From Methanobacteriota archaeon (GTDB lineage: Archaea; Thermoplasmatota; Thermoplasmata; SG8-5), in the NCBI GenBank assembly GCA_013791785.1, contig VMTD01000047.1, forward strand, positions 1,704 through 65,703: a stretch of 64,000 bases of DNA, written 5' to 3'. The position numbers and the translations under genes were made by a program. The notes beneath the pieces are model-generated. The model was given only the letters and a program-made list of their open reading frames with translations. It was not told where the DNA came from and did not search any database. Each line of letters starts with the position of its first letter. The stretch's first letter is position 1. Shown piece by piece: positions 10,627 through 59,208 of the stretch.

Positions 10627-10669
10627 GTAATCCGATAGTGAATAGAGCGTATATAAAGATTATGAAATT

Positions 10670-10834
10670 TTACTGCATAAATGCTCGAGAAAGCCCAGCC
10701 TTGAGGGGCTGAGATGAATCGGCATAAGCAGTAAACTTCCAGCCCTAGCAACAAACGCCAGCCACTTTAGGGGCTGGTAGTTTACGGTATAAGCAGTAAA
10801 AACGTGATAGACCGCCGTGCACATATGCATGGCC
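10670..10834. repeat. interspersed mosaic repeat family A, copy A1 (modules: tactgca.aaatgc.gaga..gggctgagatgaatcgg / cttccagcc..gccagccactttaggggctggtagtttac / cgtgatagaccgccgtgc..atatgcatggcc)
   Basis: near-identical modules recur at 17871..18110, 21779..21950 (inverted), 30851..30957, 43901..44093, 49213..49264 and 58944..59070. Confidence 0.8.
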
Positions 10835-13666: not shown

Positions 13667-13737
13667 AACCTTGATGCACCAGTCCTGGCATGGGGTATGC
13701 TATTCATAAATAGTATAATCCCGCCAATCAATTGACG

Positions 13738-13852
13738 GTAAGAGTTCAGTATTTTGAAATTTTAGATTTTAGATCTTAGATTTTAGATATTTGCTGGCAG
13801 AATGTCGTCCGTCGTAAATCTACAATCGAAAATCTAAAATCTACAATCGTTA
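13738..13852. repeat. repeat family B, copy B1: inverted arms of tagattttagat(c)ttagattttagat and atctacaatcgaaaatctaaaatctacaatcg around a 28-nt spacer
   Basis: same arms plus the conserved leader taagagttcagt.tt.tgaaatttt recur at 32370..32630; a solo right arm sits at 28255..28315. Confidence 0.75.
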
Positions 13853-13913
13853 TTGGGTAATGTCCTCGATTGTACCGCATAACTAATATACTTGATGTTG
13901 CATATATGTTCTT

Positions 13914-14384
13914 ATGGCGAGACCACGAAGTGAAGTAAAAATTACGTGCCAGATTCCCACGTGCAAATATTATCTTAAAGAAGAAAAAAAGGACATCCTT
14001 AAAAGAGGCAAGAATAAAGCTGGCCATCAACAATATTATTGTAATCACTGCCACAAATGGTTCGTCGAAACAGCGAATACACCGTTATATCATAAACATC
14101 TGTCCGAGGAAGAAATCATCAATATATGCAAACATCTGGTTGAAAAGAATGGTTTACGTTCGATACAGCGTATAACAGGCCACCACCGAGATACGATTGG
14201 CCGTCTTGTAGTAGATCTTGCCGAGCACGCGGAAAGAGCAAATAATTTTCTGATACACAATGTAAAATTGACCCCCATAGAGTGCGATGAATTGTGGTCA
14301 TTTGTGAAAAAAAACAAAAGAAAGTTGAGCCCGGCAGCCCAGATAGCCATGAAGAAGGTGATGCTTGGGTCTACGCAAGCATAA
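13914..14384 (+). CDS. insA: IS1-type transposase N-terminal ORF (InsA-like; zinc finger + HTH)
   Basis: CQIPTCKYY...CNHCHKWF zinc-finger-like; HTH segment; ends just after ECDELWSFVKKNKRK, a hallmark IS1 motif. Confidence 0.7.
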   Translation: MARPRSEVKITCQIPTCKYYLKEEKKDILKRGKNKAGHQQYYCNHCHKWFVETANTPLYHKHLSEEEIINICKHLVEKNGLRSIQRITGHHRDTIGRLVVDLAEHAERANNFLIHNVKLTPIECDELWSFVKKNKRKLSPAAQIAMKKVMLGSTQA

Positions 14385-14905
14385 AACGAAACACATATTT
14401 TTGGCTCTCTTATTCTCTTGGTAAATGGACACAGGAAACGTGCCGTGAAATGATAGAACTCATGTATCACAGACTCGAATTGCCATTTCCGAGCAACAAA
14501 CTTGAAATCTATACCGACGGAAATGATGATTATACCTATGTTTTTCCAGAATATTATGCGAACACCTGTATCATTTACGGGCAGCTAATAAAAATCAAGA
14601 AAGGAGGTCGTCTGGTTAAAAAGATAAAACGACCGATATTTGGAGATCCACGACTGGAGGATATAGAAACAACCGAAATAGAGAATATGAATGGGATAAT
14701 GAGAGAGCGTCTTGGGCGGTTGGTTCGAAAAACTAAGTGTTTCAGCAAGGACATACAGATGCAATGGTGTGCCCTTCAGTTGTTTCAATTTCATTGGAAT
14801 TTCATGAATAGATTTCGGAGAGGAGCAACACCAGCGATGTTGGAAGGGCTGGCTGACGCGCCGTGGACATGGGAGAATTTTTTAACGACTCATTATGCGG
14901 TGTAA
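14294..14905 (+). CDS. insB: IS1-type transposase catalytic ORF (InsB-like), reached by a programmed -1 frameshift at gtgaaaaaaaac (~14303..14314)
   Basis: ORF is in the -1 frame relative to InsA and overlaps it by 91 nt; the A7 run precedes a DAWVYASIK... continuation typical of IS1 InsAB fusions. Confidence 0.65.
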   Translation: MVICEKKQKKVEPGSPDSHEEGDAWVYASIKRNTYFWLSYSLGKWTQETCREMIELMYHRLELPFPSNKLEIYTDGNDDYTYVFPEYYANTCIIYGQLIKIKKGGRLVKKIKRPIFGDPRLEDIETTEIENMNGIMRERLGRLVRKTKCFSKDIQMQWCALQLFQFHWNFMNRFRRGATPAMLEGLADAPWTWENFLTTHYAV

Positions 14906-17808: not shown

Positions 17809-19039
17809 CTAAGACCCCATCCAACACGGACAATAAAAAGGTTTCGACGTTTGTCTCGTTGAAAGTTGTTTTACTGCACAAATGCCGAGAACGCTCAGTC
17901 CTTCAGGGCTGAGATGAATCGGCATGAACAGTAAAAACGTAGGAAACCGCCATGCACCGTGCAATTATTGGCAAATGAAATCAAAGCGCATTAGCTTTGA
18001 TAATTCAGGTGCATGGCCCCATAGGTAAACTTCCAGCCCAGAATCTTGTGACAATGGTTCCATACGTAAACGGCAGCTCATTTATGGGCTGATAGTTTAC
18101 AGAAAAAAGGGCGCTAACGGGTAGTGCTAGTGCTTTCCATCGGTCATCGGTTAAGGAAGAACCGTCTGTGGGGCTGTGGCAAACACACAGTACAGACAAG
18201 GGTTTTTACCCGTGATGTGCGCCTGCCCTGCTTTGACCGCCAAGGAAATAGTCACCAACCTCCTGTTCATTTTCTAATGAGCCAGAACCCTTAACCGATG
18301 ATACTGGATAAGCCATACTCTCCTTTCATCTGGATAGCGGCTCTCAATACATAGCCACGTGTGCTGTCGGGATATTCATTGATAACACGCCTACAATTCA
18401 AGCAAATGAGTGCTCCCCTGCGCAGGTATATACACACCGAATAACATGAAATTTGATTGCTCACAGAGTCATTCAGGACGATTTGAGTATATCCATGGCA
18501 TAGAATATCGAGGGGAGCCCTTTGTTTAAACAATTTCTCGCCACTGGAATAGCTTGAAAACGCCCGTATCCGCAGATTTAAAGTCGCGGTATATGGGCGA
18601 GAACATGTTTAATCAATGCCATTCCGATTCCTGGTGCCCGACAATATACTCCTACAACCCCACAACAACGCTTTTATCCAATGACCGCATTAATGATTAT
18701 GGTCAACTACTACTCGGAGCGGGAATAATCGAGGAGATAGCCTACTCGTTCTTTCTGAGCGGTAGTTGACCAACGATCTCCTCGGTTCCTTAAGCTGGGG
18801 AAAATGGAGTTCAGTATCAAGACCCATATGTCGTGTTCGGTCAGATATCAATAAAACTTCAAGTATGAATGACATAAAAATCCGGATTCTACAGAATGAT
18901 ATTGACGTGGAAAGTAATAAAAAGTTACACCTAAATTAGGGAGACAGATTCAAATGAATAATATATTTGACATCAATGGAGAGGCCCCCATGTGTAAATT
19001 ACCAGACCCTAAATCAGATAACATTCGCCGGGGTGAAAT

Positions 19040-20941
19040 ATGTTGATCATTTTCATAGGGATTATCGCAATTCTACTCCAGTTATCTACGGCTTTTCTCG
19101 CATTCCGACTGATAAAGGTCACGGGCAAGCGATGGGCTTGGACGATGGTCGTCGTTGCGATGCTCTTAATGTTTGTGAGGCGAATCATTGCTTTGGGGGA
19201 TATAGTCAATGGAGGGGATGCAACTTCGTCAATGGTGATTACCGATACTTTCTTCACCTTTATGATATCCATAGCCATGCTCGTGGGAGTTGTGGGTATC
19301 GGTTCGTACTTCTCGGAGATGGAGAAAAGCATTGCCAAGCGCAAGAAGGCGGAAGATGAATTGAGCAAGGTTCATGATGCTTTGGAATCGAGCGTAAACG
19401 GCGTGATAATTGCCAATCTGGACGGCGAGATAACATATGTCAATTCCGCGTTCATGGAGATGTTTGAATACGAGAAAATAGAACAGGTAATAGGGAACCC
19501 GGCATCCAAATTGTTTGCCACCGAGAAGATCCAAAAGTTCGCAGATGTCACAACGATAATAGACAAGGTAAAAGGCGAGACAGAAGATTTCACAGCACGC
19601 CGCAAGGACGGGACCCTGTTCCCGGTAGAGGTGTCTTCCTCGATTGTTACCGATAAAAACAACAACACCATAGGCAGGATGGCATCGTTCGTAAACATCA
19701 CCAAGCGCAAGAAGGCGGAGAAGTTGATAGTGCACCAGAACCGAGTACTACGCGCGATTCGCAATGTTAATCAGCTCATAGTCCAAGAAAGAGACCGCGA
19801 CAAATTACTCGATAGTGTCTGCAATATTCTAATTGAAAATCGTGACTATTATAATGCCTGGATTGCACTTTTCGATGGAGATGGGACGTTTATTACAACC
19901 GCCGAGGCGGGTCTGGGTAAGGTTTTCTTGCCCATGCTCGAGCTTCTAAAAGATAATAAGATGCCTGCTTGTATTCAACTGTCTTTACCAAATGAGGGCG
20001 TGTCTCTTATTGATCGCGCCTTATGTTCTGATTGCCCAGGTTTTGATAAAGATGCTGAAACGGAAGCGATGTTTGTCAGAATAGAACATGGTGATAGGAT
20101 ATATGGTATGTTGTCAGTCACTCTTGACAAAGACTATGCTACATTAGAGGAAGAGCAGGGATTGTTTTCAGAGGTTGCCGGAGACATCGCTTTCGCACTG
20201 TTCAACATGGAACTGGAAGAAGAACGGAACCTGGGTGTGGAAAGAATTAAAGAAGAGTACAAACGCGCCGAATTCTACAACGACTTGATGTCACATGACA
20301 TCAGGAACTACAATCAGGGCGCAATGTCGAACCTTGAATTACTCTTGATGTCTGAAAATTACCCTGATGAATACAAAAGGAACACTCAAAACGCTCTCAG
20401 CCAGGTGATAGGCAGCTCTAATCTGATATCCAATCTCAGGAAACTGGGTGAGATGAAAGCGACAGAGTCGGAACTCAGGAGCATTGAGTTGCTGCCGGTG
20501 TTCCAGGACGCAGAGGATAGGGTGAGAACGCAATTCCCCAATAAGCACCTGGAGATAGTATCGGACATCAGCGAGAAAGAATACAAAGTAATCGCTAATG
20601 AACTGCTGACTGACGTGTTCGTAAATCTTTTGGGCAATGCGATGAAATTCGACAGGCGCGATGTTGTGCAAGTGGGTGTTTGCGTCAGTGAGGTCAATAA
20701 CGATTTCTGTAAAATAGAAATTAAGGACAATGGCTCAGGAGTAGATGACATACGAAAAGCCATTATTCTTGACAGGTATAATATGGGCGAGCCTTCAGTA
20801 TCCGGCTCGGGCCTCGGGTTAACCCTTGTGAAGCACATCATTGAAGGTTACGGCGGCAGGATTTGGATCGAGGACAGGGTGGAAGGTGTATCGGACCAGG
20901 GAAGCAATTTTGTGTTTTTAATACCGAGGGGAGGGGATTGA
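19040..20941 (+). CDS. membrane sensor histidine kinase (TM - PAS - GAF-like - HisKA - HATPase_c)
   Basis: N-terminal TM helices; PAS (NGVIIANLDGEITYVNSAF...); phospho-acceptor H-box (MSHDIRN); ATPase motifs (DNGSGV, GSGLGL). Confidence 0.8.
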   Translation: MLIIFIGIIAILLQLSTAFLAFRLIKVTGKRWAWTMVVVAMLLMFVRRIIALGDIVNGGDATSSMVITDTFFTFMISIAMLVGVVGIGSYFSEMEKSIAKRKKAEDELSKVHDALESSVNGVIIANLDGEITYVNSAFMEMFEYEKIEQVIGNPASKLFATEKIQKFADVTTIIDKVKGETEDFTARRKDGTLFPVEVSSSIVTDKNNNTIGRMASFVNITKRKKAEKLIVHQNRVLRAIRNVNQLIVQERDRDKLLDSVCNILIENRDYYNAWIALFDGDGTFITTAEAGLGKVFLPMLELLKDNKMPACIQLSLPNEGVSLIDRALCSDCPGFDKDAETEAMFVRIEHGDRIYGMLSVTLDKDYATLEEEQGLFSEVAGDIAFALFNMELEEERNLGVERIKEEYKRAEFYNDLMSHDIRNYNQGAMSNLELLLMSENYPDEYKRNTQNALSQVIGSSNLISNLRKLGEMKATESELRSIELLPVFQDAEDRVRTQFPNKHLEIVSDISEKEYKVIANELLTDVFVNLLGNAMKFDRRDVVQVGVCVSEVNNDFCKIEIKDNGSGVDDIRKAIILDRYNMGEPSVSGSGLGLTLVKHIIEGYGGRIWIEDRVEGVSDQGSNFVFLIPRGGD

Positions 20942-21727: not shown

Positions 21728-22133
21728 CACTCCAGCATCTCTTTTGCCTTCCTCTTGCCAATTAATTGTTTTCATTGTGTAAACTACCAGCCCCTAAAGT
21801 GGCTGGCGTTTAGAGCAACGATACTCGTTGCGACTTAGCCGAACTTTGAGTTCGGCGATAATAGCCAGGCTGGAAGTTTACCTAGGAAGTCATATGCTGG
21901 TATATGCAAGGTGCATGGCAGGTCATGCACATGTGCACAGCGGTCTACCTTTCACCTATATTCGTGTAAATGGCCTTTCATCCCGGTTTAAAAGCCAGGG
22001 GGTTCCCGGCCATTATCACTAAAGATTGCGGTATTAGGACGAGGGCATGTTCAATCAAACAAGTTTTCACTCCTGATAACCGGGTCATTATGTTCATAAT
22101 CCTCTGCAAATATATCAGAAACTAGGTGAATGA

Positions 22134-22319
22134 ATGGAAGAAAACGTTCCAGTTGACCAAGATAGACCTTTCGTATGGGTCGTGTATTCGATGAAGAGGC
22201 TGAAACTCGGTGCTAAGAACCTTGTCCCGAAGTTTCTTCTGGTCGGTGAGGGGGTGGTATCGATAGGACGGGATAAGCTATACACGCCCTTCAATCGGAT
22301 AACCGCACTCAATATATAG
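22134..22319 (+). CDS. small hypothetical protein (61 aa)
   Basis: RBS aggtga 6 nt upstream; followed on the same strand by the hairpin + T7 terminator inside repeat C1. Confidence 0.3.
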   Translation: MEENVPVDQDRPFVWVVYSMKRLKLGAKNLVPKFLLVGEGVVSIGRDKLYTPFNRITALNI

Positions 22320-22429
22320 TTCCGCATGCTGTCGAAATTTATTGTTAATACACACATATTTCACGCGAAAATATTCACAATTCCACAATCGTCGGGCAAA
22401 ACCTTATCAACTTATACATTCTTGATAGT

Positions 22430-22550
22430 AGCGGGAAGCATGAATCTATTATGTGGGCAATTCCTATCACGATAAACTCTTCCCCACTTTGAGCGGGGCA
22501 AATCTCTCTCCAACCTGGGCGTTATGCCCGAAGCCCCGCCCACCTTTTTT
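22430..22550 (+). repeat. repeat family C, copy C1 (gggaagcatgaatct.ttatgtgggcaattcctatcac ... GC hairpin + T-run); doubles as a + strand intrinsic terminator
   Basis: second copy at 27896..28012; hairpin gagcgggg..ccccgccc followed by accttttttt. Confidence 0.6.
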
Positions 22551-22573
22551 TATCGGATGAGTGGATAAACATT

Positions 22574-22972: not shown

Positions 22973-23170
22973 TCACACCTTCCCCATATAATTATCCTGA
23001 AGATTGGTTAAAGCATTCTCCATTAAGTTTCTCAATAAGTACAGGTCTTTTCTTCCTGGCTGGCGTTCAATAATATTTGTCAATCTCTCGACACACTGGG
23101 AGAGATTGTCGCATTGTTCCCTGATGCATATTGTCTTTTCGTTTGTTTCCAGCTCTATTTTTCGCATCAC
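22973..23170 (-). CDS. small hypothetical protein (65 aa), first gene of a two-gene unit
   Basis: ORF abuts the downstream gene with no gap; promoter-like AT-rich element upstream. Confidence 0.35.
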   Translation of the reverse strand: MMRKIELETNEKTICIREQCDNLSQCVERLTNIIERQPGRKDLYLLRNLMENALTNLQDNYMGKV

Positions 23171-23457
23171 AAGTATCTATAATATTAATAAAGGTAATAA
23201 ACCTTTGTTTGGATTTTGTCTGAATGTTGATGAATAGCTTTACAGCATCCATATTCAAGTCATGCTTTATCCCATACCCCCACAGCTTTGGCTATGTAAT
23301 CTCTCATGCTCTGAAAAAAAGAATGTTAGATGTATCAAATGAAACAACTTTAAACGTCATCTCGCGGGTTTTATTTTTTCCCGCTCCAATGCCAAAACAT
23401 AACTGTTCGGAGAACAATAATAAGTAAATGAACATCATTCAAGAACGGAGGTGTTAC

Positions 23458-23604
23458 ATGGTCCGAACAAGTGGTCCGAGAGTGGTCAAGAAAAACAAGG
23501 CCGCCATCCCGAAGTTCGTCAGGCAGGCATGGAAACTGAAGGATGGCGACAAGATAAAGTTCAAACTACTGGACGATGGCAAGGTTATAATCTGGAAGGC
23601 GTGA
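23458..23604 (+). CDS. AbrB/SpoVT-family small DNA-binding protein (48 aa), missing from the ORF track because it is shorter than 60 aa
   Basis: MVRTSGPRVVKKNKAAIPKFVRQAWKLKDGDKIKFKLLDDGKVIIWKA fits the swapped-hairpin AbrB pattern (IP..VR..L.LK.GD.I.F...DDGKVI..K); RBS ggaggtg 6 nt upstream. Confidence 0.5.
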   Translation: MVRTSGPRVVKKNKAAIPKFVRQAWKLKDGDKIKFKLLDDGKVIIWKA

Positions 23605-23950
23605 ATAGTTCGTTTTTGTCCCGGCAAAAGCTGATTTTCTACGCAAATCAACAAAACCAGGCAGTGATGGTTGTACGCAAGGCACAGACCATACAGGACG
23701 AGTTAGGGCTGAGGGGGAGCAAAGGTTTCACTTTCAACAAACCCTCCCAATACTTTATATATCGGAAAGTATGAAAGGCATGCGAACCAACTAAGTCGTT
23801 TTCCCATAACAGAACTATTTCTGGCAGTATGGTTCCAAAGACATTTTACAATTTTAATTTCTGATAATCAATAATGATAATCATAAGCGAATTTTTATAT
23901 CAACTCAACGGAGAATGACCTCCGCTCAATAAAGAGCGAGATGAGAATAG

Positions 23951-26534: not shown

Positions 26535-27089
26535 TTGGCAGGTACAACCAGCGTCATGGGGGACGATGGCGGCGTGCAGGTGGAAAATGTATATCCCACA
26601 TTCTCAAATCTGTCGGTGAGTGAAATTAACGGCAATACCCTGGTCACAATCAACGTTTCAGACTATAATTCATTTTGGGACATAGATAGAATATTCATAA
26701 ATGTGACAGATGGAAACGAAGGGGTCTTAAGCATTGCCTACTTTGCGAATAACACCCGTGATTCGCCAAACGGGCAGCTCAGGAACGTTATTGGAAACAA
26801 TCTGGTTTCAGAACTTTCTGGAATTAAACACAGCAATGAAAGCGAGGAATCGGAGAGTTGTTACCTTTTATTAGAAATATGCTTCACTCCTGTTGATGGA
26901 ACCTTCCTAAACGTGGTGGTATGGGATGTGGGTGGACTCTCTGCAACGTACACTGGGCAGTATGTATATCCCCCACTCGCCGGAAAGGCCAACATGAACA
27001 TAATAATCGGGGCGGTTGTGTTCTCTCTCATCCTAACGGTTTCGATTCAGATATTATTAAAACGGAGACACAAAAATGAGAATGTCTGA
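26535..27089 (+). CDS. secreted surface protein with a C-terminal TM anchor (TTG start)
   Basis: signal-like N-terminus; C-terminal NMNIIIGAVVFSLILTVSIQILLKRRHKNENV. Confidence 0.55.
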   Translation: MAGTTSVMGDDGGVQVENVYPTFSNLSVSEINGNTLVTINVSDYNSFWDIDRIFINVTDGNEGVLSIAYFANNTRDSPNGQLRNVIGNNLVSELSGIKHSNESEESESCYLLLEICFTPVDGTFLNVVVWDVGGLSATYTGQYVYPPLAGKANMNIIIGAVVFSLILTVSIQILLKRRHKNENV

Positions 27090-27675
27090 GAATATTCTCA
27101 ATCGAAGTATTCTGAACACCGTGTTACAGTCGTTCTGGCTATTTCTCTCAATCCTCCTCCTGTTTATATTAATTCTCCTAATATATGTTCCCGGTCTTAG
27201 TGCCCCGGCTGTTCTATTGTCCATGTCCCCCGATCATAGCGGCACAAATCAACCAGGCAGTATTTTTTTTGCTCTCTGTTTAGTTGCAACTATCACAGCC
27301 CTGCACTTTTTGGAGAATGACAAAGCAATTAAGCTGTCTATCATACTATCATTCATGATAATGATCATACTCGGAAACAATCTATTCAACACCAGCGTTC
27401 CGGTCCCCCTTCATTTTTATGGGCTCTTTTTTGCTGTGGCCTTGATGATTATTTTTGATGCGTTTATTGTATCAGAAATCATTGCTACACCATCAGATAC
27501 CAAAAGGAAAATTCCCATGTCGTCCGATTTATCCGAGCGGATTAGCGATTACCTCACAGAATCAAATACGGACGATAATTTGATGAGATATCTTGACAGC
27601 CTTGAAGGAATCCTTATTGAAAGCGATTTAGAGTTTGAATTAGAACGGATTATTCAATCCTACAATTCTCCTTAG
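27076..27675 (+). CDS. integral membrane protein (199 aa), last gene of the surface-protein operon
   Basis: four or five hydrophobic helices; overlaps the upstream gene by 14 nt. Confidence 0.55.
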   Translation: MRMSENILNRSILNTVLQSFWLFLSILLLFILILLIYVPGLSAPAVLLSMSPDHSGTNQPGSIFFALCLVATITALHFLENDKAIKLSIILSFMIMIILGNNLFNTSVPVPLHFYGLFFAVALMIIFDAFIVSEIIATPSDTKRKIPMSSDLSERISDYLTESNTDDNLMRYLDSLEGILIESDLEFELERIIQSYNSP

Positions 27676-27895
27676 GTAATACATTTTTAGATTGCAGGAT
27701 AAAATTGGCGTTAGGTTAATAGTGTAGTAAATTTAGATAAAGTAAGGATAAGAAGCTAGGCTATAGTGGATTTTATATATTTCCAGCGTGGTGAGAAGAG
27801 GGGGGATGGCTCCACGGAGACACGTAACGGTGTAGAGAGGATGAAGGCAAGAGCAATATCCAAATCTTTATACCGAATTAATCAATTATGCCTTT

Positions 27896-28012
27896 CGGGA
27901 AGCATGAATCTGTTATGTGGGCAATTCCTATCACTATTATCTCTTCCCCACTAGGGCGAGGTCATTCTCTTTCCATAAGGGCTTAAGCCCAGGTCCTCGC
28001 CCCATTTTTTCC
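27896..28012 (+). repeat. repeat family C, copy C2, with terminator hairpin gggcgagg...cctcgcccc + T6
   Basis: 92% of the core is identical to 22436..22480; lies 220 nt downstream of the 27076..27675 gene. Confidence 0.6.
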
Positions 28013-28254
28013 CGCAAAATCATGCTTCCAGTTGTTTTTTATGATTTTGCGGAAATTCCAAAGACCCTGTGAATCATTAATGAAGATAGAACGTCGATTC
28101 ATGGCGAACGCTCATTATTGCATAGATTTAGTTTCCGCATTCACCGATTGCTTGCAAAATGATGGGAATTTATGGTGCTGGATTTAGTTTGTAATTGTTT
28201 CCGCATCATTGGCGAATGCGCCGTTTTCAAACGTTGCCAGCTGCATTCACCGCA

Positions 28255-28315
28255 CGTCGTAAATCTAAAATCTACAATCCCAAAATCGAAAATCGTTATA
28301 CATCTACAATCGACG
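28255..28315. repeat. repeat family B, solo right arm (copy B3)
   Basis: cgtcgtaaatctaaaatctacaatc..aaaatcgaaaatcgttata matches the right arms of B1/B2. Confidence 0.55.
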
Positions 28316-28377
28316 AGAATTGCATTCAACAACCGTCGCTGATTCGCCCCCACACTGGCCAACCCGGTCCAACGGCT

Positions 28378-28790
28378 GGTTCCAGCCCAGGCCATCATGC
28401 CCCGTCTGAATTGGAACATTTTGATAGCTGGAGGGCGGGGTATTCGCCATCGAATTTTCCGAATTCGATGTCGTGTGACACGATTCTCGCCATCATCCTT
28501 TTAAAGCCCCGCCTGTGAGGGCGGGGTTAGCTTAAACCGGCACACAACCCGGCCCCGGGGCTACGGCACCGGCCAACTCCCAAAGCACCCTTTCTCAGGT
28601 TTAACGGTGATGGCGCGCGCCTCCAATCCCAAATCGTCAGCTAGCCTGGGTGCCGTTGTTACCCCGGCCTTACAGCCGGGGCTTTGAAAACAGGGTGCCA
28701 ACAAAATGCCTTTTTGCCAACAATATGCTGTCACCCATACAGCCAATAGATTGAAACCCCGCCCTCACAGGCGGGGCATGCTACTTACTT
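28378..28790. repeat. repeat family D, copy D1: GC-rich ~410-bp element with CCCCGCC-N5-GGCGGGG hairpins and an atcgaatt/aattcgat palindrome
   Basis: the 5' ~130 bp and 3' ~40 bp are shared with 44290..44885 (gggcggggtattcgccatcgaatt..ccgaattcgatgtcgtgtgac; aaaccc.gccctcacaggc.gggcatgct). Confidence 0.7.
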
Positions 28791-29705
28791 CCCGCGCTCC
28801 TCCGTCACGACGTTCATAACCTTCTGGAGAAACTCGTTCCAGGTTTCTTGTGAATTTCTGAACTTCTCTGCGGCTTCTGAAACAAGTCCTGCAATCTCGC
28901 TGTTAATTTCAGAAGAGATTTTGCTCCAATTCACCAGCACCTCTTCGGTTTTACCCGGCACGAACATTTGATGCATTCCACCATCTGCCATCATTTGATA
29001 TGCATTTTCATCCGTTGTTATCTCCGTCAGCATTGTATTCATCCGGTTGGTGAAATCACGCCACGAGGATTGTATCTCCTTGTATTCATCAATCGTTGCC
29101 TCGCTGTTTTCAGCGAAGAACGCAGTGGTGTACCCGGACACTTCTTCATACTCCTTCTTGAGATCTTCGATGAGTTCAACTTGCTCTTGTCCGCTGGATG
29201 ATGCAATTCTGCTAATGAGTTCTGCAATTGTCCTCCATTTTCCGAATAACTTCGTATACTTACCGGTGCTCTTTTGTGTATTCTTGATTAGGGAGGCGTT
29301 CATCTTCCCGTAATGCTCGTTCCAGACGCCGGAGATTTGTTTGTATTGTTCCTTTCCGAAATCAGGCAGGATGCTTTCCCATAGGTTATCATTGAACTTC
29401 GACCACATCTCCCAGATGTTCGTATTGAATTTCTGCTGCTCACCTATCACATCGTTCATGCGAGTCAGTAAACCGAATTGCTGTTCAGTGCACAGGTTCA
29501 TTATCTCCCGCATGCGGTCCTCCGAAGTCACTTCCACCTTTGAATTGCCTTCCTCATGGTCCCCAGTGGTCTTCCACACTTTGGGATTGCTCTCTTCGCT
29601 CTTTTTCGTCCCCGAGGTTTCCACCACTTTTGGAATGCTCTCTTCGCTCTTTTTCGTTTGTTTCATGTTCTTTTTTGTCATGTTCATCCTCTCCATATTG
29701 TTCAA
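28785..29705 (-). CDS. Trp-periodic helical repeat protein (306 aa), paralog of 29702..30580
   Basis: six or more repeats of h-x2-W-x2-(F/Y)-x3-M-N-x-x-(I/L) every ~25-35 aa; N-terminal KKSEES.PKV repeats; translationally coupled to the upstream paralog. Confidence 0.65.
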   Translation of the reverse strand: MNNMERMNMTKKNMKQTKKSEESIPKVVETSGTKKSEESNPKVWKTTGDHEEGNSKVEVTSEDRMREIMNLCTEQQFGLLTRMNDVIGEQQKFNTNIWEMWSKFNDNLWESILPDFGKEQYKQISGVWNEHYGKMNASLIKNTQKSTGKYTKLFGKWRTIAELISRIASSSGQEQVELIEDLKKEYEEVSGYTTAFFAENSEATIDEYKEIQSSWRDFTNRMNTMLTEITTDENAYQMMADGGMHQMFVPGKTEEVLVNWSKISSEINSEIAGLVSEAAEKFRNSQETWNEFLQKVMNVVTEERGK

Positions 29706-30580
29706 TTCAACTTTTTCTCCAACTCCTCCACTTTTTTCTTCAGTTCCGAGATCTCATTGTGCAATGCGTGAGCACTCGGGAACCGGAACATCATGAGGTT
29801 TTTCTGGATGGCCCCCGTCCTTTCAAAATATGTTTGATAAAGGCTCTCAATATCGGTACCGAAATCCTTTGCCAAACTGGTAAACCATCCGTTCATCTTC
29901 TTGGTTTCGTTTATCCAAGTGGCATAGATGTCCTTGTAATGCGTTTTGTCGTCCTTGAAGAAACTTGTCATTGTTTCTCCGAATTTTTCGGACATGGATG
30001 ACCAGTGTGCGGAGAGTTCGTTGAGTCCGATTCCGTTTTGATTGGTTAAAGGAACCATAAGACTGTTCATCTTCTCGATGAAATCGCCCCACAGGTCAAT
30101 CATTTTTTGATGGTCATCATTACCTTTAACCATCAGTTTGTTTATATTGGCGTTCATATCGTTCGTAAAATCAAACCATGCTGTGTGAAGATCCGATACC
30201 GTGTCCTTTTCCGGTTTGCCACTTTTCAAAATGTTCTCCATTGTGTTCTTCGAGTACTCGCCATACATTTTCATCATTCTTTCTGCATTAGTCGAATTCT
30301 CGGAAACTATATTGTTCAGCCTGGCGCCAATCTTGTTGTTGTAGTTCTTCCAGACATTGAAAAGTTCTTTGTAATTGGATTGTTCCTCATTCGATGTTGG
30401 ATTTATTCTTGTCTCTAGACTCTTCGAAAAATCCACCCAGCCATTATAGAGTTTCTCGCATTCGGCATGGTTTTCCTCCAGGGCCGTGGTGATTTGATTC
30501 TCCAAAAGTTTGGAGTAATCTGTCCATTCGTTAAATATGCCCATAGTACTTGCTTTTTCCTCTTTTTCTGGTTTTACCAT
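29702..30580 (-). CDS. Trp-periodic helical repeat protein (292 aa) with a C-terminal coiled coil
   Basis: repeats FNEWTDYSKLLEN / YNGWVDFSKSLET / FNVWKNYNNKIGA / HTAWFDFTNDMNA / IDLWGDFIEKMNS / SAHWSSMSEKFGE / YATWINETKKMNG. Confidence 0.65.
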   Translation of the reverse strand: MVKPEKEEKASTMGIFNEWTDYSKLLENQITTALEENHAECEKLYNGWVDFSKSLETRINPTSNEEQSNYKELFNVWKNYNNKIGARLNNIVSENSTNAERMMKMYGEYSKNTMENILKSGKPEKDTVSDLHTAWFDFTNDMNANINKLMVKGNDDHQKMIDLWGDFIEKMNSLMVPLTNQNGIGLNELSAHWSSMSEKFGETMTSFFKDDKTHYKDIYATWINETKKMNGWFTSLAKDFGTDIESLYQTYFERTGAIQKNLMMFRFPSAHALHNEISELKKKVEELEKKLN

Positions 30581-30961
30581 ATTTTTACCTCCCTTATTTT
30601 ATTCTGGAATTGATGATTTGACTAAACTTAGATTCCCCCATTGATGTTCAACTCTTTTAATCGTAAATGTCCTGACCATATTAACTAACTTTTTCAAAAT
30701 TGAGTACAGATGATGTACACATCTTTTACACATGTTCAAAATTCAAAATGCATTGTACGCATAGAAAACCATCATGCACCAGCTCTCGGATGCTGCTTTC
30801 CCGAGGATGTTGAAAAAACCTACGACAGGAGCTTCGAAAAGTTCGCTGTACATATGCCGAGAAAGCCCAGCCCTGGGGGGCTGAGATGAATCGGCATAAG
30901 CAGTAAACTTCCAGTCCTGGCAACAAACGCCAGCCACTTTAGGGGCTGGTAGTTTACGTAA

Positions 30962-32305: not shown

Positions 32306-32369
32306 TCATTGCCTCCTAGCGATTTGTCAAATAGAGAAGGCTCAATGCATATATATTTGACGCCCCACC

Positions 32370-32630
32370 GTAAGAGTTCAGTCTTCTGAAATTTTAGATT
32401 TTAGATCTTAGATTTTAGATTTGTGCTGGGAATATGCTGTTTTGTCAATCTTTTTTAGTGATAAGTGATAAATGAAAAACTGAGTATTTTTGTCCTTGAG
32501 AGCCGATTCATTCATCATTTACCTCCCAACGTCACTTTTCACTATTCACTTTACACTTTTCACTAATCACTTCGGCCAGTCAATCCGTCGTAAATCTACA
32601 ATCGTCAATCTACAATCTACAATCGTTATC
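32370..32630. repeat. repeat family B, copy B2, with an expanded AT-rich ~150-bp core carrying nested inverted repeats (agtgataagtgataaatgaaaa / ttttcactattcactt...)
   Basis: left arm/leader ccgtaagagttcagtcttctgaaattttagattttagatcttagattttagat and right arm cgtcgtaaatctacaatcgtcaatctacaatctacaatcg. Confidence 0.7.
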
Positions 32631-33881: not shown

Positions 33882-36800
33882 CAGCAGAATTCAAAAATAA
33901 TGATGATATAAATAAATTAAGAAACATAATCAATAAGAAAAAAGATTCAAACAAGACATTTATTACAATGTGCTCTGGAACGGGATGCTTGGCTTCCGGC
34001 AGTGGAAAAGTTACTGAAGCCTTTAGAAATTCGTTTAAAAAAATGAATCTTGAAAGCAAGGTCGAGGTTAAAACAACTGGCTGTCATGGTTTTTGTGAAC
34101 ATGGCCCCCTTATCGTGATCCGCCCTTCTGGTATATTTTATCATAAAGTAACACCAGAGGATGTGGATGAAATCATTTCGGAAACTATTCTCAAATCCAA
34201 AGTAGTCGACCGTTTGTTATATGTCAATCCATCAACAGGGGAAAAAATCATTTATGAAAAAGACGTTCCATTTTATAATAAACAAATGAGAATCCTTTTT
34301 GGTAAAAATGGCATCCTTGACCCCACTAGTATCGAAGAATATATCGGTCTGGGTGGTTATTCCGCTTCAGAAAAGGTATTTTCCCGAATGTCATCAGATG
34401 AGATTATTGACGAAGTAAAAAAATCAGGCCTTAGAGGTAGAGGTGGTGCAGGATTTCCAACTGGTTTTAAATGGGATTTCTGTAAAAAAGCAAAGGGCGA
34501 TATGAAATACATTGTATGCAATGCTGATGAAGGAGACCCTGGCGCATACATGAATAGAAGCTTGTTGGAAGGAAATCCACACAGCGTTCTGGAAGGAATG
34601 TTAATCGGTGCATTTGCCATTGGTGCATCCGAAGGCATCATTTACATTAGACATGAATATCCGTTAGCAGTAAAAACAATTGAAAACGCCATGGATCAGA
34701 TGCGAAAATATGGCTTGCTTGGTAATAATATATTAGGATCAGGTTTTAATTTTGACATAAGGATTGTTCCTGGCGCCGGTGCATTTGTTTGTGGTGAAGA
34801 AACAGCACTTATCGCATCAATAGAGGGGAAAAAAGGAGAGCCCAGACAGAGGCCACCTTTCCCAGCTCAAAAAGGAATCTTTGGCAAACCCACGAACATA
34901 AACAATGTTGAAACATGGGCAAATATACCATTAATCATCAACAATGGTGCAGAGTGGTTCACTAATATTGGAGTTGAGGGAGCCAATGGCACAAAAATAT
35001 TTTCTTTGGTTGGAAAAATAAACAACACAGGCTTGGTAGAAGTTCCATTGGGTACCACAATAAGGGAAATGGTATATGATATTGGTGGTGGAATACCCAA
35101 GGGCAAAAAGTTCAAAGCAATACAAACCGGAGGTCCTTCTGGAGGGTGCATACCTGAGAACTTGCTTTCAACACCAATTGATTATGTAAAACTAGCTCAA
35201 GCCGGTTCAATAATGGGTTCCGGCGGTCTTGTAGTAATGGATGAAGATACCTGCATGGTAGATGTGGCAAAATATTTCCTTGGATTTCTTCAGGAGGAAT
35301 CCTGTGGCAAGTGCCTCACATGTAGAGAAGGAATAGAGAGGTTATTGGAAATTGTAACTGATATTACTGAAGGCAAAGGCAAAATGAGTGATATCAATTT
35401 ATTGGAAGAGCTTGGCAATGTTGTTAAAGATGCTTCAATGTGCGGACTTGGCCAAACAGCCCCCAATTCAGTACTTTCGACATTGAGATACTTTATGGAT
35501 GAATATGAACAGCACATCAAATACAAAAGATGCCCTGCTGTAGTCTGTAAGGAAATTATATCCTCGCCATGCCAACATGTTTGTCCGATAGATACAGAAG
35601 CACCTTTGTACATCTCTCTGATAGCCGAAGGACGGTATGAAGAGGCCTTCAATGTTATTATGAAAGATAATCCTCTCCCATCAGTCTGTGCCAGAGTATG
35701 TAGCCATCCCTGCGAGACAAAATGCCAGGCAGGCAAATTCAGCGATCCTATTTCTATCAGAGGACTAAAGAGATTTGTAACTGATTATGCCCAGAAGAAT
35801 GATTTGAAATACTTGCCTGAAAAACAAGAAACAAAGAAAGAAAAGATTGCGATCATCGGTTCAGGACCCGCTGGATTGATTGCGGGCTACTACCTTGGAA
35901 TGAATGGATACCAGACTACGATTTTTGAATCCTTGCCAGTTCATGGTGGCGCATTGTCAGTATGCATTCCCGAGTACAGATTGCCCCAGGCTATACTTGA
36001 ACATGACATTAAAAATATTACAAACATGGGTGTGGAAATAAAATACAATGTTACGGTAGGCAAGGACATTTCATTTGAAGAACTGCGAAAAACCTACCAG
36101 GCAATATTTATTGCGACAGGCGCACGCAAGTCCATTAAATTGGGCATACCCAATGAGGATGCTGATGGGGTACTTTATTCCATGGACTTCCTAAGAGATA
36201 TGGCTCTCGGAAAAAAGATCAATGTCGGTTCACGAATAGGCATTATTGGGGGCGGAAATGCTGCGGTGGATGCAGCCAGGATGGCCAGCCGTATTTCAAG
36301 TATCGAAGAGGCCTCGTTCAATGCTATGATAGATACAGCCGGAATGGCCAGCCGCCTTACGGATTTTGAAGAAGCCACATTGATATACCGGAGAACCAAA
36401 TCCGAAATGCCTGCCTTCGAAGAAGAAATAAAAGCATGCCTGGATGAACGTGTCAAGATGCAGTTCCTTACTGCACCTAAAAGAATATTGGTCAAGGATG
36501 GAAAAATCACTGGATTAGAATGCCTAAAAATGGAATTGGGAGAACGGGACGATTCTGGCAGAAAGAGACCCATCCCCATCGAGGGCTCTGAATTCATAAT
36601 TGAATTGGACACATTGATTATCGCAATCGGTGAACGGCCGGACCTTTCCTTTTTAGATGAAATAGAAGGATTCGAGGTCAATAAGGGAGACACTATCAAA
36701 GTTGACACAGAACTCTACACAACAGGGATAGATGGTGTTTTTGCAGGTGGTGACGTGGTAACTGGCCCGAATACAGTGATTGAGGCCATGGGATCTGGAA

Positions 36801-43817: not shown

Positions 43818-43900
43818 GATATCGTCAATGATTTACAATATATATGTTTTTATCTTATCTTGGATTCAATCTTCGAGTGCTATTTCTGACTGAATTATAA

Positions 43901-44093
43901 CGTGATAGACCGCCGTGCTTATATGCATGACCTGCCATGCATCGTGTTCATATGCATGACCTGCCATGCATCGTGTACATATACCTGCATATGAAATCAA
44001 AGCTTGTGAGTTTTGATAATTAGGTGCATGGCCCCTCAGGTAAACTTCCAGCCATGGCAACAAACGCCAGCCACTTTACGGGCTGGTAGTTTA
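43901..44093. repeat. repeat family A, copy A5, including a 2x ~29-bp tandem repeat (atatgcatgacctgccatgcatcgtgt)
   Basis: modules cgtgatagaccgccgtgc, gaaatcaaagc...gtgcatggcc and cttccagcc...gccagccactttacgggctggtagtttat. Confidence 0.7.
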
Positions 44094-44289
44094 TGCAATT
44101 CACTATAAAATTACAATGTTTTTGTGATGAGACACCCTAACCAAAGAAAAAGAAAAAAATAGAGGGAGTAATCGTGATAGTACACAATTCTCAGCGCAGT
44201 ATATACCACCTTTCCCGAAATTCTCGATTATGATAATGATGCCTGTCGAACCGGGCTTCACCGGGGTACCGGCCCTACCAACCCAGCGG

Positions 44290-44885
44290 CTGATTCCGGC
44301 CTTCCCGATTCTGTAGCTGCTTCCAGCCAACCCCATCATGCCCCGTCTGAATCGCTCCTCATGTTGTCTGGAGGGCGGGGTATTCGCCATCGAATTTTTC
44401 GAATTCGATGTCGTGTGACCGATTCCCGTATCATCCTTTGGAAACCCCGCCTGACATTCTATCACATTTTATTAGGGCGGGGAGGAGTTTAAACCGGCGT
44501 TCAACCCGGCCATGTAGCTGCTTCCGATTAACTGCCCGAACCCCCCTACCTAGCTGAGCTACGGCGGGGCACCGGCCAACCCGCCACAGGGCCAGTCCCA
44601 GCCTTTTCGGCTACGAAGCTGGTTCCGGCCTTCCCGGTTCCTGTAACCGGTTCCAACGTTCGTTTCTAACACGCTACGCGAAGGATGAACGAATCGCTCC
44701 TTTGCAAGATCCGCGTAATGGGTTTCACCCGGCATGCGATGGCCGGGCGAGTACCTGGCACCCCGCCCTTACGGGCGAGGATTGACAATTGAAGATTGCA
44801 TAATGCATCATTTGTTTGGAAGAATATCACTTGATGCCAGATTAGTATAAAACCCTGCCCTCACAGGCAGGGCATGCTGCTAACA
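44290..44885. repeat. repeat family D, copy D2 (GC-rich ~600 bp, variable middle, ggttcc(g/a)(g/a)cc short direct repeats)
   Basis: conserved ends shared with 28378..28790; internal hairpins ccccgcc..ggcgggg. Confidence 0.7.
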
Positions 44886-44953
44886 GTCTCAATGCTATTC
44901 TAATGTCCTGTCCTTGTATTGAAGACAACCGTCGGGAATCCGGGATTACCGGA

Positions 44954-49082: not shown

Positions 49083-49275
49083 GATTTTACCTCCCATATT
49101 CACAATTTTGCGCTATGATATGCATCAATGTATATGATGGAGGGTTGAAGTTAGACACAATATATAAATTTTTATATCTCATTATTCAGATATAAATTTA
49201 ACATTGATATATTACTGCACAAATGCCGAGAACGCTCAGTCCTTCAGGGCTGAGATGAATCGGGGAGCACTCATC

Positions 49276-58943: not shown

Positions 58944-59070
58944 ACATGAAATCAAAGCTAAATGACTTTGATTTCATGTGCATGGCCTACAATTGTAAAC
59001 TTCCAGCCTTGAACCAATGGGTACAGGATCCAAGCGATAATGCTAGCCACTTTAGGGGCTGGAAGCTTAC
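58944..59070. repeat. repeat family A, copy A7 (partial)
   Basis: gaaatcaaagc..gctttgat..gtgcatggcc and cttccagcc...gccactttaggggctgg modules. Confidence 0.6.
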
Positions 59071-59208
59071 ATGATTTTTAATTTTTGAATATGCGCATTA
59101 ATAATTTTTTCATCGATTGTGCAATGCCTATTAAGCAATGTATTTTTATACGATATGCTATTTACCGACCTGTAAATCAATCAAATTTGTCAAAGAGGAG
59201 GAAATAAA

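What the first reader, a model, noticed from the sequence alone, without database searches (positions are those of the whole stretch)
27676..28784. 1.1-kb gene-free interval packed with repeats C2, ttccgcat direct repeats, B3 and D1
Five repeat types lie side by side. C2 carries a terminator hairpin. Three direct repeats of (ga)tttagttt..ccgcat(t/c)ca(cc/tt)g(att/gcg) lie at ~28125..28258. B3 is a solo arm. D1 is GC-rich with the palindrome atcgaatt(ttcc)gaattcgat and CCCCGCC-N5-GGCGGGG hairpins. The motif ATGGCGAA(T/C)GC / (G)GTATTCGCCAT is shared in both orientations between the direct repeats and D1. This density suggests a repeat-accretion hotspot or a regulatory/structural locus such as protein-binding iterons.
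Basis: seen in the sequence. Interest (0 to 1): 0.5.

Follow-up and report, generated by a model that had tools for sequence, protein, structure and literature searches.

The report
Archaeal spacer packed with hairpin repeats

Summary
Positions 27676-28784 are non-coding and are 100% identical in four assemblies, so this is not an assembly join. The host is a Candidatus Thermoplasmatota archaeon, so bacterial promoter and terminator rules do not apply.

About 77% of the interval belongs to four dispersed families:
- C2 (27896-28010, + strand) has two stem-loops and a T6 run, and looks like a small RNA gene.
- Unit (d) (28085-28275) has three hairpins that pair best on the minus strand.
- B3 (28255-28311) is a solo arm of a TTTTAGAT-array inverted repeat.
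- D1 (28340-28784) is an inverted dimer of a ~160-nt three-hairpin unit.

A covariance model finds four D1 units in the window and 23 in about 205 kb of related DNA. They lie mostly just past the stop codons of converging genes. The hairpins are kept by compensatory changes. They show 41 G·T against 2 A·C pairs on the sense strand, and their loops are mostly GNRA. This points to single-stranded, probably RNA-level, function.

My best reading is accreted REP/BIME-like 3'-end modules. The iteron, replication-origin and assembly-artefact readings are rejected. No transposase partner was found, and transcription is untested.

The parts
27676..27861 (.). Unique AT- and purine-rich spacer after the stop of ORF 27076..27675. 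No copy was found elsewhere.
   Evidence: No BLAST match in the window or in related loci. GC is 0.33-0.40 and GC skew is +0.35 to +0.39.
27862..27873 (+). TATA-like box candidate (AAATCTTTATAC), about 24-29 nt upstream of C2. This is inferred, not shown.
   Evidence: It aligns with AACCTTATCAA upstream of the two other C2 copies. The spacing fits what is known of archaeal promoters; that is my own knowledge, not a test.
27896..28010 (+). C2: a unit of about 115 nt with two stem-loops (GGGAAG..CTTCCC and GGGCGAGG..CCTCGCCC) ending in T6. It is a candidate small RNA gene.
   Evidence: There are three copies: this one, 22426-22551, and L009 1138-1263 (covariance model R3, E = 5e-28 to 4e-35). 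The consensus fold has 30 pairs, 2 of them with changes on both sides, and invariant G·U pairs on the + strand.
28009..28055 (.). Local hairpin with 15-nt arms (TTCCCGCAAAATCAT / ATGATTTTGCGGAAA).
   Evidence: pair I3, 93% complementary. Its 3' arm (TTGCGGAAATT) is shared with L027 upstream of unit (d).
28085..28275 (-). Unit (d): a conserved three-hairpin element. The middle hairpin pairs about 28172-28183 with 28198-28209.
   Evidence: It is 75-77% identical to L027 2483-2675 and L010 16772-16975. On the minus strand it has 28 pairs, 4 with changes on both sides, and an invariant U·G that would be a C·A mismatch on the plus strand. Model R2 finds one copy per source.
28255..28311 (.). B3: a solo arm of the B family, made of arrays of the octamer ATCTAAAA / TTTTAGAT.
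   Evidence: It matches 13810-13853 and 32586-32629 and L052 4619-4675 at 95% over 57 nt. Complete inverted pairs lie at 13735-13853 and 32367-32629. The same arm follows unit (d) in L027.
28340..28392 (+). D1 leader modules (TGGCCAAC and GGCTGGTTCCAGCC), which precede D1 units in many copies.
   Evidence: Read directly from the copies printed and the alignment.
28393..28555 (+). D1 left unit. It reads CATCATG, then P1 (28399-28441), P2 (28448-28470), the linker GTGTGACACGATT..CATCATCCTTTTAAAG, P3 (28505-28528), then TTAGCTTAAACCGGCNNNNAACCCGGCC.
   Evidence: Model R1 scores 179 bits, E = 4e-53.
28556..28637 (.). Variable centre of the D1 dimer.
   Evidence: It resembles L027 6401-6506 (84%) but differs from the centre of window copy B and of L023 and L048.
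28638..28783 (-). D1 right unit: a diverged inverted copy of the same unit, lacking P2. P1' is 28757-28776, starting 5 nt after the stop codon of ORF 28785..29705. P3' is 28662-28681.
   Evidence: Model R1 gives E = 2e-10 on the minus strand. The arms are read, and both hairpins are listed.
44334..44512 (+). Second D1 in the window, left unit.
   Evidence: Model R1 scores 160 bits, E = 2e-47. The core is 84% identical to copy A.
44740..44879 (-). Second D1 in the window, right unit. Its terminal hairpin is 44853-44872 (CCCTGCC/GGCAGGG, locally compensated).
   Evidence: Model R1 gives E = 7e-8.
22426..22551 (+). Second C2 copy in the window, also in a spacer between converging genes.

Best explanation
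The interval is the spacer between two converging genes of a Thermoplasmatota archaeon. At least four lineage-specific families of structured, non-coding, dispersed repeats have accumulated in it.

The largest, D1, is an inverted, convergent dimer of a ~160-nt unit. Each unit carries three GC-rich hairpins (P1, P2, P3). Each half begins with CATCATG or GCATG a few to a few tens of bases after the stop codon of its neighbouring gene, on that gene's sense strand.

I infer that each half is transcribed as part of the neighbouring gene's 3' untranslated region. Its stable, mostly GNRA-capped hairpins would then act at the RNA level. They could define or protect the transcript 3' end and insulate the converging genes from each other, as bacterial REP/BIME elements are thought to do.

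C2 is most likely a separate small RNA gene on the + strand, with a TATA-like box, two stem-loops and a T6 run. Unit (d) is a three-hairpin element that works on the minus strand. B3 is a leftover arm of a TIR-type element.

Shown: the anatomy, family membership, dispersal, compensatory changes, strand asymmetry, and position relative to genes.

Inferred: transcription, the RNA-level role, and how the families spread.
For: The host is an archaeon, and the locus is 100% identical in four assemblies.

Family size:
- Model R1 finds 4 units in the window.
- It gives 27 matches in 204,671 bases of window plus related loci. Of these, 23 are units or unit fragments, including the inverted right halves.
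- Nine exact-pattern hits lie on seven large contigs of one metagenome.

Hairpin statistics on 8 full units:
- 95.9% of cells are paired.
- 6 pairs have changes on both sides.
- 0 of 500 shuffles reach the observed paired percentage, the both-sides-changed counts or the covariation score, and versions with the partners slid by 1-3 columns reach at most 63% paired.
- P2 exists as CATCGAATT/AATTCGATG, ACCCGGTT/AACCGGGT and CCAGATT/AATCTGG.

Strand asymmetry: there are 41 G·T against 2 A·C pairs on the sense strand. The right halves show the same pattern on their own strand.

Short loops on the sense strand are GUGA or GUAA in about 17 of 21 cases, counted by hand.

Local hairpins are compensated; long-range pairing is not. 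Examples are the tail of copy B (CCCTGCC/GGCAGGG) and the tail of L023.

Most copies fill the gap between converging genes, starting 5-50 nt after a stop codon. The neighbouring genes are unrelated housekeeping genes.

For bacterial REPs, the same two features (G·T pairing and location downstream of genes) have been used to argue for an RNA role (PMC3733652).
Against: - No expression data were available.
- An inverted dimer is automatically 'sense' to both neighbours between converging genes, so orientation there proves little.
- Solo units split 4 sense to 2 not sense (L052, L037). Window copy B and L015 sit between same-direction genes, so one half is antisense.
- Archaeal terminators are U-tracts without a required hairpin (PMC8716108). 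Only 2-4 T follow the D1 hairpins, so a terminator role would be unusual.
- G·T pairs and GNRA-like loops are also tolerated in single-stranded DNA.
- Many copies share ancestry, so counts of cells overstate independent events.
- The alignment from the covariance model is fitted to the structure.
Confidence: 0.5

Rival explanations
1. D1, and perhaps the B family, is a non-autonomous mobile element. It would be moved as single-stranded DNA by a tyrosine HUH transposase, either an IS200/IS605-type TnpA or a RAYT-like enzyme. The hairpins would be kept because the enzyme recognises them, not because of any RNA role. The interval would then be a tolerated dumping ground for selfish DNA.
For: - The family is multi-copy and dispersed, with truncated and mosaic variants: L021 and L052 lack P2 and P3, and L027 starts at P3.
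- A ~140-nt insertion lies inside a P3 loop in L017.
- Presence varies among relatives at the orthologous gene.
- The hairpins are strand-specific and have conserved 5' flanks (CATG, AAAG), as in substrates of Y1 transposases.
- IS200-type TnpA is the only Y1 class reported in archaea (PMC6006769).
- The interval is a synteny breakpoint.
Against: - No Y1/HUH or other matching transposase appears among the window ORFs scanned (the larger ones plus the L002 gene table) or among the 19 genes flanking copies.
- No GTAG or CGTC tag is present.
- The two ends carry hairpins in inverted orientation, unlike IS200/IS605 ends.
- No target-site duplication or clean empty site was found.
- The order of modules is kept in a relative whose flanking protein is only 75% identical. 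That suggests constraint beyond mobility.
- This reading does not exclude an RNA role as well.
Confidence: 0.27
2. D1 is one large stand-alone structured non-coding RNA gene of about 400-550 nt with a cellular function of its own, present as paralogues. The interval would then be a cluster of RNA genes rather than repeats.
For: - GC is 55-62% in a ~42% GC genome.
- Folding z-scores are about -4.8.
- Hairpins show covariation.
- The module order is conserved across relatives.
Against: - The two halves work on opposite strands, so no single transcript explains them.
- Both strands fold equally well.
- No promoter-like box lies upstream. Units start 5-18 nt after stop codons.
- The centres are variable, and many copies are truncated or mosaic.
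- There are many copies per genome.
- No Rfam family matches.
Confidence: 0.1
3. The interval would be a protein-binding regulatory or structural DNA locus, such as iterons or a replication origin.
For: - The interval is long, with several short direct and inverted repeats.
- Cumulative GC skew peaks near 27900.
Against: - The direct repeats are hairpin arms with compensatory changes.
- G·T asymmetry argues against double-stranded palindromes.
- All modules recur at many unrelated loci.
- No orc1/cdc6 or rep gene is nearby.
- The skew peak is what converging coding strands give.
Confidence: 0.03
4. The interval is an assembly artefact, a chimeric join of repeat-containing reads.
For: Repeats often break or mis-join short-read assemblies. 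Two short Logan contigs (L006, L007) end inside the terminal hairpin region.
Against: All 1109 bases, with both flanking genes, are 100% identical in ENA ERZ27247124, GCA_018899285.1, GCA_018900055.1 and GCA_018899975.1. A related genome (L009) has a homologous D1 at the same place.
Confidence: 0.01

Closest known systems
Bacterial REP sequences and BIMEs (bacterial interspersed mosaic elements) of Enterobacteria, Pseudomonas and others
   Same: - Both are short GC-rich imperfect palindromes in many copies.
- Both are extragenic and lie mainly downstream of genes, between converging or same-direction genes.
- Both occur in alternating orientation and combine with other short motifs into mosaics.
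- G·T pairs in the stems suggest they are transcribed (PMC3733652; PMC2817692 abstract).
   Different: - The host is an archaeon.
- The repeating unit is about 160 nt with three hairpins and conserved linkers, not a single 20-40-nt palindrome.
- There is no GTAG or CGTC tag.
- No RAYT gene was seen.
- Copy number is extrapolated at roughly a hundred or more per genome from only 114 kb of less-biased sequence, which is uncertain.
REPIN-RAYT systems
   Same: Both have two related palindromic units in inverted orientation around a variable spacer, dispersed through the genome.
   Different: - REPINs are about 100 bp and fold as one long hairpin. Here the dimers are 390-550 nt, and the compensated pairs are local, not between the two halves.
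[quoted passage not shown]
- No RAYT was found here.
MITEs, including archaeal ones, and transcribed bacterial elements such as Neisseria Correia elements and enterobacterial ERIC/IRU (the latter from my own knowledge)
   Same: They are non-coding, have inverted ends, measure a few hundred bases, are intergenic and multi-copy, and are often co-transcribed with neighbouring genes.
   Different: - No target-site duplication was found.
- No parent insertion sequence with matching ends was found.
- D1 is GC-rich rather than AT-rich.
- The inverted halves are themselves made of strand-specific hairpins.
IS200/IS605-derived palindrome-associated elements and their TnpA
   Same: Both have subterminal hairpins read on one strand, with conserved short flanks. 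The TnpA family is present in archaea (PMC6006769).
   Different: - In IS200/IS605 both end hairpins lie on the same strand. In D1 they are inverted.
- No tnpA or tnpB is nearby.
- No Rfam hit was found for IS-associated RNAs.

Membership tests
REP / BIME | Short GC-rich imperfect palindromes present in many copies per genome | tested here: met
   CCCCGYC-loop-GGCGGGG hairpins were found: 3 exact in the window against 0 expected, dozens in related loci, and 23 units in about 205 kb.
REP / BIME | Extragenic, mostly downstream of genes (between converging or same-direction genes) | tested here: met
   At least 8 of the 14 copy regions examined lie between converging genes, most starting 5-50 nt after a stop codon. 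One (L037) lies between diverging genes.
REP / BIME | Units in alternating orientation, combined with other motifs into mosaics | tested here: met
   Inverted right halves were detected by model R1. Mosaic and truncated variants were also seen.
REP / BIME | Conserved GTAG or CGTC tetranucleotide at one end of the palindrome | tested here: not met
   The 5' flanks are CATG (P1 and tail) or AAAG/AAAC (P3). The 3' flanks are TTAGC or AGGTG.
REP / BIME and REPIN | A cognate RAYT (TnpA-REP) gene in the same genome, often flanked by REPs | not testable with these tools
   None was found among the window ORFs scanned or 19 genes flanking copies. The rest of the genome could not be searched.
REPIN | Two inverted REPs about 100 bp apart that pair with each other in one long hairpin | tested here: not met
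   The dimers are 390-550 nt. The tail hairpins of copy B and L023 are compensated locally, while pairing with the opposite half is broken.
MITE | Terminal inverted repeats | tested here: met
   CATGCCCCGTCTG / CAGGCGGGGCATG is 92% complementary (I8). Whole halves are inverted copies.
MITE | Target-site duplication and empty sites | tested here: inconclusive
   No direct repeat flanks the four complete dimers read. The left flank is always another family module. Relatives that lack D1 also differ in the neighbouring gene.
MITE | A parent insertion sequence with the same ends | tested here: inconclusive
   The only transposase-like ORFs in the window (IS1-like, 13914-14905) lie next to a B-type repeat, not D1. 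No D1-ended coding element occurs in the loci held.
IS200/IS605-derived element | Hairpins at both ends on the same strand | tested here: not met
   The left and right halves are on opposite strands.
Iterons / replication origin | Regularly spaced same-orientation repeats of 17-22 bp next to a rep or orc1/cdc6 gene, at one locus | tested here: not met
   - Exact repeats are 10 nt, at spacings of 56, 66, 106 and 108 nt.
- They are hairpin arms.
- The modules recur at many loci.
- No such gene is nearby.
Any Rfam RNA family, tRNA or tmRNA | A match to a curated covariance model | tested here: not met
   There were 0 matches at gathering score over the whole window. Only chance-level hits (E of 0.11 or more) appeared in 27600-28850 and 43800-44960. 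No tRNA or tmRNA was found.
Hairpin-plus-U-tract (bacterial-type) terminator | A GC-rich stem directly followed by a U-tract | tested here: inconclusive
   - C2 ends in a stem plus T6.
- D1 hairpins are followed by only 2-4 T (TTTCAATC, TTTTATAC, TTAGCTTA).
- Archaeal termination does not require hairpins (PMC8716108).

The most novel reading that the evidence does not exclude
D1 would be the first REP/BIME-like high-copy repeat family described in Archaea. It is a ~160-nt three-hairpin cassette, usually paired head-on between converging genes. It would be selected at the RNA level, as the sense-strand G·U pairs and GNRA loops suggest. It would give this Thermoplasmatota lineage hairpin-based 3'-end formation or protection, in a domain where transcript ends are thought to depend on U-tracts and aCPSF1 without hairpins. 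C2 and unit (d) would be two further undescribed archaeal structured RNA families.
Probability: 0.3. Interest if true: 0.6.

Novelty: new variant of a known kind. Interest (0 to 1): 0.42.

Why it matters
Dispersed palindromic repeats of the REP/BIME/REPIN type shape mRNA stability, termination and genome rearrangement in bacteria. [quoted passage not shown]

A comparable family in an uncultured Thermoplasmatota lineage would extend this kind of genome feature to the other prokaryotic domain. Its structure is strand-specific and conserved by covariation, and it sits just past stop codons.

It would also give a concrete test of whether some archaea use stable 3' hairpins at transcript ends.

There are practical consequences too. 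These repeats mark synteny breakpoints, and some short contigs end in them. Gene callers may also place false ORFs in them, such as the 120-aa ORF 44103..44465.

If the elements turn out to be merely selfish DNA, the finding is ordinary repeat biology in a new host.

Tried and rejected
- **Known RNA families:** Rfam at gathering score over the window, and at E up to 10 over both repeat regions, gave nothing credible. ARAGORN found nothing.
- **Genome scan:** A 20-mer from the D1 core gave one chance hit, inside a bacterial coding region.
- **Other collections:** The D1 pattern gave 0 hits in viral contigs. The whole interval gave no match in plasmid or phage collections in distant mode.
- **Coding potential:** No frame is consistently open across copies, and the internal ORFs have no Pfam hit.
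- **Diversity-generating retroelement:** I considered template/variable repeats because the two window copies are 84% identical over 141 nt. I dropped it because both copies are non-coding and no reverse transcriptase is nearby.
- **Other candidates set aside from the sequence and Rfam results:** integron attC sites (no core-site match), group II intron fragments, TnpB/IscB guide RNAs, CRISPR, and tRNA-derived elements.
- **One large RNA:** Rejected because the two halves use opposite strands and both strands fold equally well.
- **Synteny of unit (d):** I tested whether it always follows the same gene. The neighbouring 292-aa protein in L027 is unrelated to either window protein.
- **Transposase search:** None was found next to 19 genes flanking copies.
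- **Exact look-up of ORF 29702..30580:** Nothing was found, probably because a different start codon was called.
- **Bacterial promoter/terminator scanner:** Not used, because the host is an archaeon.
Full report
**What is there.** Positions 27676-28784 lie between converging ORFs 27076..27675 (+) and 28785..29705 (-). The right half, about 28300-28780, has 55-62% GC against about 42% around it. No tRNA, tmRNA or Rfam family matches, either at gathering score over the whole window or at E up to 10 over the interval. The small ORFs inside it have no Pfam hit. No frame stays open across copies of the GC-rich element. The two window copies differ by 1-nt indels. The interval is therefore non-coding.

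**Host and assembly.** The flanking 306-aa ORF is 100% identical over 97% of its length to a 298-aa protein that NCBI labels Candidatus Thermoplasmatota archaeon. The same locus is present in GCA_018899285.1, GCA_018900055.1, GCA_018899975.1 and ENA ERZ27247124, and no gene is called in the gap in any of them. All 1109 bases are 100% identical in these four contigs. Archaeal marker genes in the window, such as an RLI/ABCE1-type protein, agree with the label. Bacterial promoter and terminator logic therefore does not apply.

**The repeats are real.** Within the window:
- 28375-28515 matches 44316-44453 at 84% over 141 nt (E = 1e-36).
- 27896-27975 matches 22432-22512 at 85%.
- 28255-28299 matches 13810-13853 and 32586-32629.
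- CCCCGCC-N(3-30)-GGCGGGG occurs three times, against none in 100 shuffles.
- A perfect 23-nt inverted pair lies at 28506-28528 and 28755-28777.

About 77% of the interval has homologues elsewhere in the window or in related genomes. This is my sum of three stretches: C2 with its upstream box, unit (d) with B3, and D1.

**C2 (27896-28010, + strand).** Three copies exist: this one, 22426-22551, and L009 1138-1263 (model R3). They share two stem-loops, with two pairs changed on both sides and invariant G·U pairs on the + strand. They also share a terminal T-run and a conserved TATA-like stretch about 24-29 nt upstream. A stand-alone small RNA gene is the simplest reading, but this is inferred.

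**Unit (d) (28085-28275).** The unit is 75-77% identical to L027 2483-2675 and L010 16772-16975. On the minus strand all three hairpins pair, four pairs have changes on both sides among only three sequences, and there is an invariant U·G. On the plus strand that position is a C·A mismatch. Model R2 finds one copy in each of these sources. The neighbouring genes differ between sources, so it is a dispersed element. It is not an iteron array.

**B3 (28255-28311).** This is a solo arm of a family built from arrays of the octamer TTTTAGAT. Complete inverted pairs lie at 13735-13853 and 32367-32629. The same arm follows unit (d) in L027.

**D1 anatomy.** A metagenome scan with TTAAACCGGCNNNNAACCCGGC returned 39 stretches. 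Ten are true homologues, and nine of those lie on seven large contigs of one metagenome. Reading these copies gives a base unit of about 160 nt, in this order:
1. CATCATG
2. hairpin P1
3. hairpin P2
4. a conserved linker (GTGAC.CGATT..CATCATCCTTT.AAAG)
5. hairpin P3
6. TTAGCTTAAACCGGCNNNNAACCCGGCC

A covariance model built from eight full units finds four units in the window: 28393-28555 (+), 28638-28783 (-), 44334-44512 (+) and 44740-44879 (-). It gives 27 matches in 204,671 bases of window plus related loci, of which 23 are units or unit fragments. Each D1 is thus an inverted, convergent dimer of one unit around a variable centre. Solo, truncated and mosaic versions also exist. L021 and L052 lack P2 and P3, L027 starts at P3, and L017 has a ~140-nt insertion inside a P3 loop.

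**Evidence that the hairpins are selected.**
- On the eight full units, 95.9% of cells pair and six pairs have changes on both sides.
- No shuffle out of 500 reaches the observed paired percentage, the both-sides-changed counts or the covariation score, and structures with the partners slid by 1-3 columns reach at most 63% paired.
- P2 occurs as three unrelated but self-complementary sequences.
- Non-Watson-Crick cells are very one-sided: 41 G·T against 2 A·C on the sense strand. The inverted right halves show the same pattern on their own strand.
- This asymmetry excludes a double-stranded palindrome or cruciform as the selected form. It points to single-stranded nucleic acid of a defined polarity.
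- Short loops read on the sense strand are GUGA or GUAA in about 17 of 21 cases, by my count.
- Local hairpins are compensated (tail of copy B, CCCTGCC/GGCAGGG). The alternative long-range pairing between the halves is broken in the same copies. The REPIN-style single long hairpin is therefore not the conserved structure.

Three caveats apply:
- Copies share ancestry.
- The model-derived alignment is fitted to the structure.
- Single-stranded DNA also tolerates G·T pairs.

**Genomic setting.**
- At least 8 of the 14 copy regions examined lie between converging genes, and most start 5-50 nt after a stop codon.
- In the finding's interval, the right half starts 5 nt after the stop of ORF 28785..29705.
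- The genes next to copies are unrelated housekeeping genes. They include a ribosome-biogenesis protein, an M29 peptidase, a radical SAM enzyme and an aldehyde:ferredoxin oxidoreductase. None is a transposase.
- Exceptions to the 'sense 3' UTR' picture exist: window copy B and L015 (same-direction genes), L037 (diverging genes) and L052.

**Comparison with relatives.**
- L009, whose flanking protein is 87% identical, has a homologous D1 at the same place.
- L008 (84%) and L010 (75%) lack D1 there. The L010 spacer is 192 nt and the gap in L008 is about 240 nt.
- L010 carries a diverged D1 with the same module order 9 kb away.
- In L008 the window's two flanks are about 7 kb apart and arranged differently, so the interval is a synteny breakpoint.
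- Several other spacers of about 1 kb in the window also carry family repeats.

**Most likely function.** What is shown is an accretion of four structured repeat families in a spacer between converging genes. My inference, at confidence about 0.5, is that the D1 halves act as RNA in the 3' untranslated regions of the flanking genes. There they would form or protect transcript ends and insulate the converging genes, as proposed for bacterial REPs on the same two grounds of G·T pairing and downstream location (PMC3733652).

This would be unusual for archaea. Their terminators are U-tracts with no required hairpin (PMC8716108), and only 2-4 T follow the D1 hairpins.

The main rival, at about 0.27, is a non-autonomous element moved as single-stranded DNA by a Y1/HUH transposase. 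The two readings are not exclusive. A single large RNA gene, iterons or an origin, and an assembly artefact are each disfavoured for the reasons given in the rival entries.

**Comparison with known systems.** D1 works most like REP/BIME elements. It meets four of their features:
- palindromes in high copy
- extragenic position downstream of genes
- alternating orientation
- mosaic structure

It fails the GTAG/CGTC tag, and no RAYT gene could be sought genome-wide. I therefore do not file it as a member. It fails the REPIN definition on size and on which pairs are conserved. It fails the IS200/IS605 end geometry. It meets the MITE criterion of inverted ends, but not the criteria of target duplication or a parent element. 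[quoted passage not shown] Another states that only IS200-type Y1 transposases occur in archaea (PMC6006769). My literature searches found no description of such a family in Thermoplasmatota, but those searches are not exhaustive.

**Verdict.** The 'accretion hotspot' reading is supported, and the 'iteron' reading is not. The element is a new variant of a known kind. Interest is moderate at 0.42. It would rise if transcription and a 3'-end role were shown, and fall if a mobilising transposase were shown to explain everything.

Noticed in passing
window 13735-14905: Two overlapping ORFs (13914..14384 and 14294..14905) include a weak IS1-transposase match (DDE_Tnp_IS1, E = 1.4e-6). They lie directly right of a compact B-type inverted repeat made of TTTTAGAT octamer arrays (13735-13853). 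The B family may be related to this insertion sequence.
   Followed up: partly
window 43899-43982; L017 10159-10331: A 29-nt head-to-tail repeat (catatgcatgacctgccatgcatcgtgtt) has about 2.9 units in the window and at least 5 units at the end of L017. It has no spacers, so it is not CRISPR-like.
   Followed up: no
window 10665-10786, 30838-30958, 17869-17935, 49205-49263, 44040-44100, 21771-21811, 59039-59076: This is another dispersed intergenic family. The best pair is 91% identical over 122 nt. It is also present in the related metagenome loci (L015, L023, L048, L052) and in L008.
   Followed up: no
window 44667-44783; L023 3172-3290; L048 2711-2818; L010 about 19690-19790: The centre of the second D1 copy carries an extra conserved module (ACGCGAAGGATGA...GATCCGCG...GCCCGGCATGCGA.GGCCGGGC) with its own hairpins. 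The module is absent from the D1 in the finding's interval.
   Followed up: partly
window 28785-30580; L008 6011-10855; L010 9102-16710: The two genes right of the interval (292 aa and 298/306 aa, no Pfam match) lie beside a polyhydroxyalkanoate synthase cluster (PhaC_N, ECH_1, adh_short) in two relatives. They could be granule-associated proteins.
   Followed up: no
L017 1144-1437: A D1 unit has about 140 nt inserted inside the loop of hairpin P3. The insert is itself made of other family modules (GGCACCCAGCCAACC, CACATAGATTTTTCGAGCAGGCTGACC). This suggests nested insertion or recombination at hairpin loops.
   Followed up: partly
window 34403-35314 vs 53362-54273; 56637-57917 vs 61996-63276: Paralogous coding stretches (66% and 71% identity) belong to two similar iron-sulfur/flavin oxidoreductase gene clusters.
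   Followed up: no
window 17809-19039, 21728-22573, 22973-23950: These are three more gene-poor spacers of about 0.8-1.2 kb. The second holds the other C2 copy and further repeats. Long intergenic spacers seem typical of this genome.
   Followed up: partly
window 44103-44465 (-): A 120-aa ORF with a GTG start lies entirely within repeat DNA, including the D1 left unit, and has no Pfam hit. It is probably a false ORF that gene callers may report.
   Followed up: partly
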